A stretch of DNA of 64,000 nucleotides from Eledone cirrhosa (taxonomy: Eukaryota), in assembly GCA_964016885.1 (NCBI GenBank), contig OZ024742.1:49290001-49354000 (forward strand). Reading direction: 5' to 3'. The notes below the pieces were generated by a model. It saw nothing but the letters and a program-made list of their open reading frames with translations. It searched no databases and was not told the origin of the DNA. Position numbers and translations under genes: made by a program. This document shows positions 6,281 through 61,123 of this stretch, piece by piece (position 1 is the stretch's first letter; every line of letters starts with the position of its first letter).

Positions 6281-7125
<845 letters not shown>

Positions 7126-7271
7126 TAAAGAAAAAGAGATGAAATTGAAAATGCAACTGGAGTCTTATTTTAAAAAAATATATATATATTTTTATTTGGT
7201 TTCTTTACTTGTTTCGCAGTTCTTCTGCTTTTCAAAAGGTGAGTTGAGATGGAGGGTCTGTGGTTTTTCTC

Positions 7272-7330
<59 letters not shown>

Positions 7331-7416
7331 TGGCTGTCCGTTTGTTTACAAACGAACAAAGCGAACATTATAATAAATGTTCGCTAAACTGATACGTACA
7401 TATATATATGTGCCTG

Positions 7417-7503
<87 letters not shown>

Positions 7504-7918
7504 GCTACTGTACGTATGTATGTACGTATACATACATACTTACATTTAAGTAAGTGCCGTACTAAGAGTGAGAAATGAAATTTCGTTTCATTCTACTCCA
7601 TTTATCGTTTTCGGTGCGCCTGGCCGACTGAACTCACTTTATATGCAAATTAGGCTGCTCAGCCGTTAATTTTCATAAGGAAAGTATATACTTTCGAACG
7701 TTCAACCATCTGGCAGAAGGGTATACGGTGCTGACGATAGCTAACAAGCTTGAAACTAGTACATCGTTCCTGTGTCAGTGTTGAACAAAAAGGTGACGTG
7801 GTTGCCTTAACACCGTACGGCATAAATCAGGCTGTCCGTTTGTTTACAAACGAACAAAGCGAACATTATAATAAATGTTCGCTAAACTGATACGTACATA
7901 TATATATATGTGTGCCTG

Positions 7919-7977
<59 letters not shown>

Positions 7978-8083
7978 GCTACTGTACGTCTGTATACATA
8001 TATGTATGTACGTATACATACATACTTACATTTAAGTAAATGCCGTACTAAGAGTGAGAAATGAAATTTCGTTTCATTCTATT

Positions 8084-8087
<4 letters not shown>
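7331..8087 (+). mobile_element. ORF-less tandem HHR element (about 1.5 copies of a ~490-nt unit), retrozyme-like
   Basis: 7331-7601 is directly repeated at 7829-8087. The unique middle carries an intact HHR. Dense hairpins throughout, flanked by (TA)n. Confidence 0.7.
7725..7767 (+). ncRNA. Minimal type I hammerhead ribozyme, intact core
   Basis: acggtg-CTGACGA-t-agct-aaca-agct-t-GAAACTAGTA-catcgt. Stem III palindrome ACTAGT, GUA cleavage after 7761. Confidence 0.88.
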
Positions 8088-8142
<55 letters not shown>

Positions 8143-15328: not shown

Positions 15329-18300
15329 TTAATCTGTTATTTTAATATATATATATATAATTATATATTCGTGTACAGATATTTTTGCATACACAATAAC
15401 AAAATATAAACAAACGTATTTATTTCACGAGGCTCGATAAGGATAAATATATATCAAATATATAAGAACCCTAGTCTATATATATAAAACTGAGGATGTT
15501 TGTCTGTATGTGTGTGTGAGTTCGAATCCCTAAAACTGGAGAACCACCCAACCGACTGTTTTCAAACTTTACACATGTAATACTTATGTTTCAGGGAGTG
15601 TTCTGAGCGAAACAGATTTCAAATTTCCAATGCCCTAGGGACCGCATTAGGCGATTTAACGATCTCGCTCTATAATTCCTAGTCTTTCTCTTTTTAGATA
15701 GATACATACATATAACGTCGAGCCCTTATATTATCTGTCTGTATGTCTGACTGTCTGCATTACGTCAGCAATACTAAGCTTAGCTAAGGCGGTTATATAT
15801 TTCACACAACACTAAAAATTAAAGCCGGTAAAGAAAAGCATCGCTGTAATAGCTTCAGTTTGTTTACTTACGTGCCTTTACGAGAACAAAAGTTACTATT
15901 TTACCGCTTAGTATTGTAAAGCACCAAACCGACTGTTTCAAAGTTTACACATGTAATACTTATGTGTTCTGAGCAAAAAAAAAAATTCAAATTTTCAATG
16001 CCCTAGAATACTATTGATAGAAAAACTGGAAAACTATTCGATGAAACCAACAGGGCTCATTTTGATATATATGTGATTTGAAGGAAATTTTGATGCTTTT
16101 TCTAGCATATCTTATGACCACATAGACACTCTCCTGAACTGGTACAGTGGAAGCACCTAATTGAAAAATCTCTGATCTAAATATATACATAACTTCACAT
16201 GAATAAACTAATATTGATGGAAATATCTTGCATATAATGAGGATGATGATGTTAACAATGACGAAATTTCTTTATATAATTGATGATAATATGATGCCAC
16301 TGATAGACATAAGAATGACAATGATGATGAGGATAATACTGATGAAGTTATGGAGTTATACACATCTAATCTATTGCAATCAATGTAATAACGTAGCAAT
16401 TTTTGAGCAGCTAATTACTTATATATATATATACACATGTGTGTGTATGTGTGTGTATGTGTGTTTGTGTGTGTGTGTGTGCACATGCGCATAAAGTCAT
16501 ATACACAAACACATAGATTTATGAAATTTTGTTTTAGAAAACTTATATATACTTAGATATAGTGAATATTAATAAAATATGAACTGAATGATGAAAATAA
16601 ATTATTAAGAACATATAAAGAAATAAATATCAGTAATAAGAAATATATTGAACAAATGAGAAAATATAATTTTATCTGTTATTATCGACAATATTTTTAT
16701 TATTTTCTCTTTTTTATTCTTAATACATTTTATTTCCTTTACTTATTTTCCAATCGCTGCTGCTGCTACTACTACTGCTGCAATTTTGCTTACATTACTT
16801 TTCTACTATCACAACTAATAATGATTTAGCATGTTTTTTGTTGTTTTTTTGTACATTATTATTATATGCTGAGAATTTAAAATGTAATAACAAAAAATAC
16901 AGAACACTTCTAATTGCATTTTATGTTCAGCTGTGCTGTATTGTGAAGTTAAAGACATACATACACACACATCTTTATATGAAACTATATATATATATAC
17001 ATATTACATAGTAAAAGTAAAATTTAAATAAATTAATGAATTCAAATAAAAATATATAATATTCTGCTTGAGAAGTACAATTAATTAGCATTCCTTGAAA
17101 AGAAGCACATATTGCCTTACTCTTTTACTGGTTTCAGTTATTAGACAGTGGCCATGCTAGAGTACTACATATATATTATCATCATCATCTTCCCTGATTA
17201 ATTTCTATTTTCCATGCAGGCATGGGTTAAAGTGGGTTATGTTCTGCAAATTGACACAAAAGTCAGATGACCATGCCTTGCGCATACATTCTATTTTGGC
17301 AAGGTTTCGATAGATGGGTACCCTTCTTTTTGACTTCTCTACTGTGTGCATTTTATCAGGGCAACAGTGGTATTACTTCTCAGAGCTGGTTGGGTATATT
17401 TTATTGTGACACCAGCAATATAACACACACACACACATACTCATATATGTATGTATATATAGTGTAAGTGATTCAGTGAATTACTAGTGGTGGTACCAAG
17501 ACAAGCACTCTATTAGTAATGATTTGTTTACATGAGTATGATTTGTTTACATGCATAATAATAACATTCTTATACATATATATGAAACTTCTACATGCGT
17601 GCATGTGTGCGCGTGTCTGTGTGTAGACTGTTTTACGATCAATTTTTAGTGCCTTAATAGCTGGGATGGAAATTCTTAATGAAAACAATTACTTGGTTTT
17701 GGAAAATAAACCACCCACCACAAACAACACCACCACCAAAAACAAAATGAAATGAGTTATTAATCTATAATTGATCTATAATTTATTCATATATCTTGCT
17801 GTCAGTTCTAGATTCTATGTAGATACAGTATCTTGAAAGTTACTAAATGCGTTTCTTATGAAACATGAGCTAACTGCATTGAAGGATACGCCTAGAACTA
17901 AAGATATGTTAGATTCATTTGCATACTGCTGTGTATTTATAGTGTTCATGCAGGCATGTACACATACAAACATACACACTGTATAAGGTCTAAAGCATTT
18001 AAAATATCCAAAGTCAACAAGCAATAACAGAGAATAAACACAGTATGATAGTTGGTATTGGTTTAATCGAAACATTGCCATATTTTCCAGAAAAGACACT
18101 GCATAAGATGATCAAATAATTTTGAAATTTTGAATGACTTTAGTAATACAAGTTTCTCATCATTAAGCTACTGGTTCTCACATAGAATTATAAAAACTGG
18201 TTTTTAAATGCCTATAAAAAACTTAAAACACAGTTTAGTATTGAAAAAAACATGACCAGTTGTATGTTGTCTGATATCAAATGGGTTAATGCTTGAAATG

Positions 18301-29411: not shown

Positions 29412-29765
29412 ATCATCATCATCATCATTTTACGTCTGCTTTTCCCTGCTTGCAAGGGTGGGACGGGAACTGATTCTGGCTTGCTTTCTACAGATGGATG
29501 CCCTTCCTAACACCAACCTCATTTACAGTGAGTACTGGGTCCTTTTTTTCCGTGGCACCTACACCTCCACTTTACAGTGTGGGCTGGGTGTTTTTTTTGC
29601 AGTGCAACCTCCACGACCACATCTCATTTCTACAGCTGAATAAAATGGAGCAATGTGAAATAAAGTGTCTTGCTCAAGGAAACAACACATCACCCGTTAC
29701 GAGAATTGAACTCACAACCTTTCGATTGCAAGCCCAATGCTCTAACCACTAAGCCATACACCTTC
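29412..29765 (-). mobile_element. S1 SINE with intact tRNA-like head
   Basis: A box TGGCTTAGTGG, B box GTTCAATTC, CORE-like block, RTE tail with (GAT)n. Confidence 0.88.
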
Positions 29766-29774
29766 ATTAGCAGC

Positions 29775-29896
29775 AAATGCTTACGGCACCTAGGATTCCC
29801 GAGCGGTCACCCATCTAAGTACTAATTAGGCTCGATGTTGCTTAACTTTGGTGATTGGACGAGAACCGGTGTTTTCAGCATCATATGGCCGTAAAC
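29775..29896 (-). rRNA. 5S rRNA: Full-length dispersed 5S rRNA copy, probable pseudogene
   Basis: Minus strand GTTTACGGCCATATGATGCTGAAAACACCGGTTCTCGTCCAATCACCAAAGTTAAGCAAC...TTAGTACTTAGATGGGTGACCGCTCGGGAATCCTAGGTGCCGTAAGCATTT. Helix I pairs. It has CpG-decay changes and only a T3 terminator. Confidence 0.92.
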
Positions 29897-39264: not shown

Positions 39265-39833
39265 GATTATCCTTTCTGTTACCATAATTCTGATAAAAGA
39301 TGGTACTGGTCATTAACCCTTTTGTTACCATATTTCTGATAAAAGATGGTACCGGTCATTAACCCTTTTGTTACCATATTTCTAATGGAAGACACTGTTT
39401 GTATCATTAACCCATTCATTACCATATATCTAATGAAAGACACCGTCTATGTCATTAACCTATTTGCTACTATATTTCTAATGAAATACACTGTGTATGT
39501 CATTAACCCTTTCGTTACCATATTTGTAATGAAAGACACTACCTATGTCATTAAACCTTTTGTTACCATATTTCTAACGAAAGCTACTGCCTTTATCATT
39601 GACCCCCTTCATTCCCATATTTCTAAATTACACTGCCTATGTCATTAACCCTTTCGTTACCATATTTTAAATGAATGATAGTGGTTATTTCATTAACTCT
39701 TTTGTTTTCATATTTCTAATAAAAGAAACTGCCTATGTCATTAACTTTTTCATTACTATATTTCTAATGAAAACACTGCTTATGTCACTAATACTTTTTT
39801 TACTATATTTCTAATGAAAGACATTGCCTATGA
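39265..39833 (+). repeat. 48-bp minisatellite, about 12 copies, derived from a MITE terminus
   Basis: Unit CATTAACCCTTTCGTTACCATATTTCTAATGAAAGACACTGCCTATGT at 39311, 39357, 39405, 39453, 39501, 39549, 39597, 39643, 39691, 39739 and 39786. Confidence 0.92.
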
Positions 39834-48808: not shown

Positions 48809-49213
48809 TCATCATCATCATTTCATCATTTCAATTTACGTCCGCTTTTTCCCTGCTTGCAAGGGTGGGACGGGAACTGATTCTCGGTTGATTTCTACAA
48901 CTGGATGCCCTTCCTAACACCAACCTCATTTACAGTGAATGCTGGGTGTTTTTTTTTCCGTGGCGCCTACACGTCCACTTTACAGTGTGGGCTGGGTGGT
49001 TTTTTTTTTTTTGCCGTGGCACCTCCACGACCACTTTGCAGTGGAATGATAGGGACCCTAGTCCTATCATCTCATTTCTACAGCTGAGTAAACTGGAGCA
49101 ATGTGAAATAAAGTGTCTTGCTCAAGGACACAACACATCACCCGGTCTGAGAATTGAACTCACAACCTTTCGATTGTAAGGCCAATGCTCTTACCACTAA
49201 GCCACATGCCTCC
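48809..49213 (-). mobile_element. S1 SINE, full length
   Basis: Head GGAGGCATGTGGCTTAGTGG..GAGTTCAATTC, CORE-like block, ~45-bp internal repeats, RTE tail. Confidence 0.9.
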
Positions 49214-60746: not shown

Positions 60747-61123
60747 CATGGCTTAGTGGTTAGAGCATTGGTCTTGCAATCGAAAGGTTGTGAGTTCAAT
60801 TCTCAGCAGACCGGGTGATGTGTTGTTTCCTTGAGCAAGACACTTTATTTCACATAGCTCCAGTTTACTCAGCTGTAGAAATGAGATGATAGGGACTGGG
60901 GTCCATATCATTCCACTGCAGAGTGGTCGTGGAAGTGCCACGGCAAAAAAGCACCCAGCCCAAACTGTTAAGTGGACGTGTAGGCTCCACGGAAAAAAAA
61001 GCACCCAGCACTCACTGTAAATGAGGTTGGTGTTAGGAAGGGCATCCAGCTGTAGAAATCAAGCCAGAATCAGTTCCCGTCCCACCCTTGCAAGCAGGGA
61101 AAAGCGGACGTAAAATGAAATGA
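60747..61123 (+). mobile_element. S1 SINE, near full length
   Basis: A and B boxes, CORE-like block, RTE tail. Confidence 0.9.

What the first reader, a model, noticed from the sequence alone, without database searches (positions are those of the whole stretch)
7331..8087. ORF-less, highly structured ~490-nt tandem unit with an intact hammerhead: candidate retrozyme or circular RNA element
Seen: 7331-7601 recurs at 7829-8087, giving about 1.5 head-to-tail copies with one intact minimal HHR (7725-7767). Stem I extends about 35 nt further (gttcaac/gttgaac, ctggca/tgtcag, agg/cct). The rest of the unit is tiled with helices: aaggtgac/gttgcctt, gtacggca/tgccgtac, atcag/ctgat, agcgaacatt/aatgttcgct, tacgtaca/tgtacgta, gaaagtatatactttc, ggctg/cagcc and aatgaaa/tttcatt. 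cggtg (7611) and caccg (7811) would also pair. Known: non-LTR retrozymes are tandem non-coding units with type I HHRs that yield circRNAs and are thought to be mobilised by PLEs. Inference: this is a rolling-circle cDNA copy of a branched circular RNA, unusual in its length and in carrying internal (UA)n stems.
Basis: partly seen in the sequence, partly recalled or inferred. Interest (0 to 1): 0.9.

Follow-up and report, generated by a model that had tools for sequence, protein, structure and literature searches.

The report
Hammerhead retrozyme with Penelope-type insertions
This is one copy of a non-coding, hammerhead-bearing repeat with over 17,000 ribozyme motifs in this animal genome; its folding is conserved, it likely forms a circular RNA, and its insertion sites look like those of the genome's Neptune retrotransposons, which likely copy it.

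Summary
Window 7329-8087 holds about 1.55 head-to-tail copies of an ORF-less unit of about 490 nt, with one type I hammerhead (7725-7767). The 3.0-Gb genome has 701 exact copies of this hammerhead and 17,364 of the family's core, as truncated copies, multimers and one very long array. Folded as a circle, the unit is far more stable than shuffles (z about -8). Its helices, hammerhead stems included, covary across subfamilies and a sister family about 30% diverged. The insertion anatomy is Penelope-type: variable 5' ends, inverted 5' arms, and two fixed 3' ends about 55 nt apart, each joined to (TA)n. Inverted pairs carry one short and one long end (27 of 30 classifiable). Coexisting Neptune elements with long ORFs insert the same way, but the unit shows no sequence similarity to the 50 GIY-YIG loci tested and no attached ORF. 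At most 207 of 15,565 copies could begin at the cleavage site, so cleaved linear monomer is not the template; circle versus uncleaved multimer is unresolved. No RNA evidence was available. Verdict: a new non-LTR retrozyme family, useful for testing which retrotransposon mobilises animal retrozymes.

The parts
7329..8087 (+). One retrozyme insertion, about 1.55 units, 5'-truncated, ending at the long fixed end (E2)
   Evidence: the 5' boundary is uncertain by a few bases (7324-7333)
7725..7767 (+). Type I hammerhead; predicted cleavage after 7761; U.U at base of stem II; palindromic 2-bp stem III, likely needs a dimer
   Evidence: sequence; stems I and II covary with the sister family; stem III pair probability 0.0 as a monomer; self-duplex -4.8 kcal/mol
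7700..7786 (+). Extended stem I arm; in a cleaved monomer it would hold the 5' and 3' ends together
   Evidence: outer 7-bp helix pair probabilities 0.84-1.0; 99.6% of cells paired in A1 with G-U-type changes
7540..7548 (+). E1, short fixed 3' end of the family (read through here; second pass about 8026-8034)
   Evidence: 84 of 299 passes stop here, 73 of them into TA-rich sequence
7597..7604 (+). E2, long fixed 3' end, about 55 nt beyond E1 (read through here; the window's copy ends at its second pass, 8087)
   Evidence: 70 of 246 passes stop here, 68 into TA-rich sequence; most unpaired 12-nt stretch of the predicted circle, 0.93
7815..8048 (+). Branched arm closed by the long-range helix 7815-7822/8041-8048, holding the variable (UA)n hairpin
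   Evidence: pair probabilities 0.97-1.0; 4 of 8 pairs change on both sides across families; TA length varies between otherwise identical units
8088..8142 (.). (TA)28 target microsatellite at the 3' junction
7277..7326 (.). (TA)24 tract at the 5' side
7123..7275 (-). 153-nt 3' end of a Neptune-type Penelope-like element (family of L111), head-to-head with the retrozyme; most likely a separate insertion in the same (TA)n tract
   Evidence: 90.2% identity; 452 copies of this PLE start at the same (TA)n junction vs 2,899 that read through

Best explanation
It is one 5'-truncated copy of a high-copy, ORF-less, hammerhead-bearing repeat family (a non-LTR retrozyme) that likely self-cleaves and circularises as an RNA of about 450-550 nt and is likely copied into (TA)n microsatellites by Neptune-type Penelope-like elements. 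Shown: copy number, permuted and multimeric copies, conserved fold, two fixed 3' ends joined to (TA)n, variable 5' ends, inverted arms pairing a short with a long end, read-through of the cleavage site, and the same insertion pattern in coexisting Neptune elements. Inferred: multimer transcripts are cut by hammerhead dimers formed through the palindromic stem III; the extended stem I holds the ends for a host ligase; the Neptune endonuclease nicks (TA)n; its reverse transcriptase primes internally at E2 (an unpaired U-rich linker) or E1 and runs round the template for more than one unit; the second target strand gives the inverted arm. Later DNA-level duplication built a few long arrays.
For: 701 exact 37-nt hammerhead copies and 17,364 core matches, controls 0. 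Nearest copies 95-99% identical on many contigs. Circular folding z -7.3 to -18.8 for 4 of 21 natural monomers tested, 0 of 40 shuffles as stable, also with TA runs held in place. Window unit z -8.3, TA-free part z -5.2, hammerhead strand more stable than its complement. Covariation: 14 pairs changed on both sides vs 7.1 shuffled (A1, 32 rows); 18 vs 10.9 (A2, 26 rows), including hammerhead stems I (3 of 6) and II (2 of 4). Stops at E1 84/299 and E2 70/246 vs 0-2 of 151-239 at four control landmarks. 27 of 30 classifiable inverted pairs are E1+E2, p 8e-6. 92 of 172 5' ends join an inverted arm. Only 207 of 15,565 copies lack the A before the cleavage site, and 28 of 30 inspected are point changes, not truncations. 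Neptune-type PLEs (RT plus C-terminal GIY-YIG, open frames 938 and 1096 aa) also end in (TA)n, and the L111 family has two 3' ends about 67 nt apart, paired in inverted insertions. Young arrays share variants across units and both arms (L103, L110). One clean head-to-head junction of a Neptune 3' arm with a retrozyme arm (L096).
Against: Cleavage, ligation and expression were not observed. The monomer fold prefers an off-register, inactive core (stem I 0.13-0.56, stem III 0.0), and 8 of 9 Xenopus retrozyme dimers did not cleave in vitro. No sequence link to any sampled PLE 3' end, so the partner is assigned by anatomy only; Naiads also favour (TA)n and were not searched for. Over all arrays, units are not closer within a locus (median 3.4% same arm, 5.3% inverted) than to the nearest unit elsewhere (1.8%). 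L096 pairs two short ends, against the short+long rule. Covariation counts sequences, not independent events, and the structure was drawn from one of the rows. Loci were chosen for holding the hammerhead region, which lowers stop rates at the control landmarks.
Confidence: 0.72

Rival explanations
1. Non-autonomous Penelope-type element copied from uncleaved linear multimer transcripts; the hammerhead is weak or incidental and no circle is needed.
For: Read-through of the cleavage site fits uncleaved multimers equally. PLEs make partial tandems and inverted arms themselves. The monomer core is predicted inactive. Multicopy head-to-tail non-autonomous Chlamys elements exist without canonical hammerheads.
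Against: The core is kept while stems I and II covary across about 30% divergence. The long stem I extension brackets exactly the cut site. Fixed 3' ends in the middle of a multimer still need internal priming.
Confidence: 0.17
2. These are stubs of the terminal repeat (pseudo-LTR) of an autonomous PLE family that was not sampled.
For: Same anatomy as PLE 3' ends: hammerhead, then 100-330 nt, then two ends at (TA)n. Xenopus retrozymes match PLE pLTRs. Only 50 GIY-YIG loci of 10,596 candidates were compared.
Against: Copies longer than one unit continue into another unit. Of 80 5' flanks not joined to an inverted arm, none leads into a same-sense PLE ORF and no shared long upstream sequence recurs at a fixed unit position (two family C flanks share another repeat). 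Arrays reach 9 or more units.
Confidence: 0.07
3. Dispersed satellite spread at the DNA level; the fold is a by-product of palindromes and TA repeats.
For: One array of at least 49 kb with many cleavage-site mutants (C3:12.27-12.32 Mb) and higher-order duplications in L163-L166.
Against: Fixed 3' ends, 5' truncation, inverted arms and the short+long rule; G-U-type and double changes; the TA-free part still folds at z -5.2.
Confidence: 0.04

Closest known systems
Animal non-LTR retrozymes (Cervera & de la Pena 2020, PMC7229834; Li, Clavereau & Pollet 2026, 10.64898/2026.07.22.740005)
   Same: ORF-less tandem units with one type I hammerhead each, low GC, thousands of copies, highly self-paired predicted circle, coexistence with PLEs. 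The U.U at the base of helix II recalls axolotl HHR_Amex2.
   Different: Unit 442-587 nt, above the 150-450 bp of the 2020 paper but inside the 51-972 bp of the 2026 preprint. It carries a variable (UA)n arm. No target-site duplication can be read. No similarity to sampled PLE pLTRs, unlike 24 of 57 Xenopus families that matched Repbase elements. The parts of those papers that I read describe no fixed ends, tails, inverted arms or (TA)n targeting for retrozymes. Circular RNA was shown there and not here.
Neptune-clade Penelope-like elements (Craig et al. 2021, PMC8557442; Arkhipova et al. 2013, PMC3846280)
   Same: 5' truncation, partial tandems, inverted 5'-truncated arm, optional tail at one end, microsatellite targets, hammerhead near the 3' end.
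   Different: No RT/GIY-YIG ORF; tail about 55 nt (published 30-40; local L111 family about 67); canonical-size hammerhead with a long stem I extension; many-unit arrays.
Non-autonomous Chlamys elements such as MRC1 (Craig et al. 2021)
   Same: Non-coding passengers of PLEs with multicopy head-to-tail insertions.
   Different: Those generally resemble the autonomous 3' end, and most Chlamys lack canonical hammerheads; this family has a hammerhead and no detected 3' similarity.

Membership tests
non-LTR retrozyme | Type I hammerhead in each unit | tested here: met
   All core positions present; stems covary; Rfam match only sub-threshold
non-LTR retrozyme | Short tandem units, dimers to multimers, dispersed | tested here: met
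non-LTR retrozyme | No protein-coding capacity | tested here: met
   Longest M-started ORF 58 aa
non-LTR retrozyme | No LTR/PBS/PPT organisation | tested here: inconclusive
   The whole insertion is permuted unit sequence with no separate internal region; PBS and PPT were not searched for
non-LTR retrozyme | Highly self-paired predicted circle | tested here: met
non-LTR retrozyme | Self-cleavage of the RNA | not testable with these tools
   Monomer core predicted off-register; needs an assay
non-LTR retrozyme | Expressed as circular RNA | not testable with these tools
   The runs offered were contigs of unknown kind
non-LTR retrozyme | Target-site duplication larger than 4 bp when present | tested here: inconclusive
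   Flanks are (TA)n
PLE-machinery insertion | Variable 5' truncation with fixed 3' end | tested here: met
PLE-machinery insertion | Inverted 5'-truncated copy at the 5' end | tested here: met
   92 of 172 5' ends
PLE-machinery insertion | Tail on one end only | tested here: met
   27 of 30 classifiable pairs are short+long
autonomous PLE or its pLTR | RT plus GIY-YIG ORF joined to the repeat | tested here: not met
   PLE protein hits in 7 of 80 loci, none continuous with the unit; none among 80 5' flanks in the same sense
autonomous PLE or its pLTR | Sequence similarity to a PLE terminal repeat | tested here: inconclusive
   None in 50 GIY-YIG loci, a small sample of 10,596 candidates

The most novel reading that the evidence does not exclude
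A long-lived, viroid-like circular RNA lineage that evolves under selection on its RNA fold (subfamilies up to about 30% apart), shares no sequence with the retrotransposons that carry it, and recruits Neptune reverse transcriptase by structure alone, offering fixed internal priming sites on an endless template. Its insertions would record how Penelope-type enzymes start and make their inverted arms and tails, with occasional Neptune-retrozyme co-insertions as direct footprints.
Probability: 0.3. Interest if true: 0.78.

Novelty: new member of a known kind. Interest (0 to 1): 0.52.

Why it matters
Which autonomous element mobilises animal retrozymes is open. A 2020 review says their repeats show no motif that would identify it (PMC7761336, passage), and the 2026 preprint argues for PLEs from co-occurrence and pLTR similarity. 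Here the junctions of many insertions show the Penelope signature, beside Neptune elements with long open frames and the same target. That gives a defined RNA, two predicted priming sites and candidate enzymes for an in vitro assay, and a test of circular-template copying proposed for PLEs in 2014. The family is also a large, possibly unannotated repeat in this genome.

Tried and rejected
RNA evidence: no RNA holder listed. Four runs laid (1 of the 3 best holders plus the 3 others) were contigs of unknown kind. One run had a single unit-sized 478-nt contig; not used, since a tandem repeat in DNA gives the same. Rfam: only TA-driven microRNA-like noise and a sub-threshold hammerhead. Window as a PLE/retrozyme chimera: attractive, then downgraded because 452 copies of that PLE begin at the same (TA)n junction on their own. 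L184 (about 85 nt of unassigned linker) and L188 (upstream arm matched none of my PLE loci) are weak chimera candidates only. Linear cleaved monomer as template: rejected; the first test (0 of 141 5' ends at the cut) was biased by how loci were chosen and was replaced. Internal (UA)n as main priming site: only 16 of 146 arms were classed as ending there; 43 of 141 5' ends map at or in the TA arm, close to its share of the unit. Single-template rolling copy as a general rule: clear in young arrays, not in the pooled distances. Subfamily B as pLTR of a PLE: no linked ORF in the loci fetched. Earlier notes of this scan on this sequence or genome: none. The supplement of PMC7229834 could not be read and may list related families.

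Full report
Observation. Window 7325-7606 recurs at 7823-8092, differing mainly in (TA)n length and two small indels, so the insertion is about 1.55 units of 486-498 nt. A complete type I hammerhead lies at 7725-7767 with predicted cleavage after 7761. Rfam does not call it (sub-threshold HH9 match). Its 6-bp helix I, 4-bp helix II and 2-bp palindromic helix III match what Cervera & de la Pena 2014 call the canonical metazoan form, thought to act as a dimer (PMC4209133, parts 1-2 of 4 read). A U.U at the base of helix II has a precedent in axolotl (PMC7229834, parts 2-4 of 6 read). There is no meaningful ORF.

Family. The genome (3.0 Gb, 1,796 contigs) gave 1,930 candidates, of which 40 were scored; full-length hits are 95-99% identical. 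The exact 37-nt hammerhead occurs 701 times and the family core 17,364 times, controls 0. Among 95 near-full units, cluster distances reach about 20%. A sister family about 70% identical has 2,421 candidates. Twenty-one natural monomers between successive cleavage sites are 442-587 nt. The host looks like an octopod cephalopod from its size and TA-rich DNA; this is my recall and was not tested.

Structure. Four of the 21 monomers were folded as circles: z -7.3 to -18.8, 0 of 40 shuffles as stable, also with TA runs held in place; the -18.8 case (L009) contains an internal inversion. The window's unit gives -161 kcal/mol against -102 +/- 7 (60 shuffles) and -144 for its complement; the TA-free part gives z -5.2. 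On 32 hand-picked copies, 95.7% of cells pair and 14 pairs change on both sides against 7.1 in shuffles. With the sister family (26 rows), 18 pairs change against 10.9, including hammerhead stems I and II and the long-range helix 7555-7562/7815-7822. These counts are not independent events. The extended stem I would hold the ends of a cleaved monomer together. As a monomer the core is predicted off-register and stem III unpaired; the palindrome can form a 6-bp duplex.

Insertion anatomy. 3' ends fall at two sites, E1 (7540-7548) and E2 (7597-7604), joined to (TA)n. 84 of 299 passes stop at E1 and 70 of 246 at E2, against 0-2 of 151-239 at four other landmarks (loci were selected for the hammerhead region, which favours low control values). 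In 80 loci, 146 arms were classed E1 60, E2 56, TA tract 16, other 11, edge 3; some 34-45-nt arms may be inflated by a palindrome. Of 47 head-to-head pairs, 27 are E1+E2, 2 E1+E1, 1 E2+E2 and 17 have an unclassified end (p 8e-6 for 27 of 30). 5' ends are scattered: 92 of 172 join an inverted arm, 52 a simple repeat, 28 other sequence. By eye the sister family ends at the same two places. E2 is the most unpaired 12-nt stretch of the predicted circle. This is the Penelope pattern of truncation, partial tandem, inverted copy and one-sided tail (Craig et al. 2021, passages; Arkhipova et al. 2013, passages).

Template. A cleaved linear monomer would give copies starting at 7762. Of 15,565 copies of the 22 nt after the cut, 207 lack the preceding A. 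At least 56 of these lie in one array, and 28 of 30 inspected are point changes. So copying runs through the cut site: a circle or an uncleaved multimer. Young arrays share variants over all units and both arms, with only the TA arm changing length, but pooled within-locus distances are not lower than nearest between-locus distances.

Partner. A GIY-YIG search gave 10,596 candidates, 150 scored. [quoted passage not shown] Their 3' ends also join (TA)n, several have a hammerhead-like motif with a palindromic stem III 85-200 nt upstream, and the L111 family has two ends about 67 nt apart that pair in inverted insertions. The retrozyme shows no similarity to these loci beyond separate insertions and no attached ORF. 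L096 has a Neptune 3' arm joined directly, head-to-head, to a retrozyme arm, with no rest of the PLE on the far side; this fits co-insertion or a later deletion. The PLE fragment next to the window's copy (7123-7275) is more simply an independent insertion.

Literature and novelty. Non-LTR retrozymes are known, and a 2026 preprint (parts 1-3 of 5 read) ties them to PLE pLTRs in vertebrates. Seven searches of the held library (listings only unless cited) showed no cephalopod retrozyme family and no account of retrozyme junctions. The giant squid genome paper only counts 235 hammerhead matches (passage). The library lacks most subscription papers, and one relevant supplement was unreadable. Earlier scan notes from other genomes describe ribozyme-free tandem units with similar Penelope-type insertions; these are unchecked leads seen after my analysis.

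Verdict. Real, and a new member of a known kind. The retrozyme reading is well supported at the DNA and structure level. Cleavage, circularity and the Neptune partner are inferred. Interest 0.52, chiefly because the junctions make the mobilisation question directly testable.

Noticed in passing
G000:C3:12271879 to at least 12321287 (L165, L166): A retrozyme array of at least 49 kb with higher-order duplications; many units have G at the cleavage position, which is expected to block cleavage. A retrozyme turned satellite.
   Followed up: partly
L173-L192: Older sister family, about 70% identical, copies 87-90% identical to the query copy, with an A.A at the base of stem II, a different stem III palindrome and U at the cleavage position.
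   Followed up: partly
L129 (and L061-L088 relatives), L111, L117, L128 3' UTRs: Neptune hammerhead-like motifs begin with U instead of C3; in the L129 family the core also has A at position 8, the U3-A8 covariation described for PLE hammerheads.
   Followed up: partly
window 7123-7275 and L193-L207: 452 copies of one Neptune family start at one (TA)n junction about 140-210 nt from the 3' end: a truncation hot spot or a short non-autonomous derivative.
   Followed up: partly
window 26410+, 26791+/26707-, 30822+/30174-, 33790+/41666-, 34198-, 32400+: Other hammerhead-like cores; the 26707/26791 pair matches the motif in the L114 Neptune family 3' UTR, and the inverted pairs look like PLE stubs.
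   Followed up: no
window 8143-about 8330; 29699-29756, 49143-49206, 60749-60807: tRNA-like heads of a probable SINE; a 5'-truncated copy follows the (TA)28 after the retrozyme.
   Followed up: no
window 29778-29896 (-): Full-length 5S rRNA match (93.4 bits) directly followed on the same strand by a tRNA-like SINE head.
   Followed up: no
window 39309-39832: 48-nt minisatellite, 11 copies, with related pieces at 18064, 19674 and 51339.
   Followed up: no
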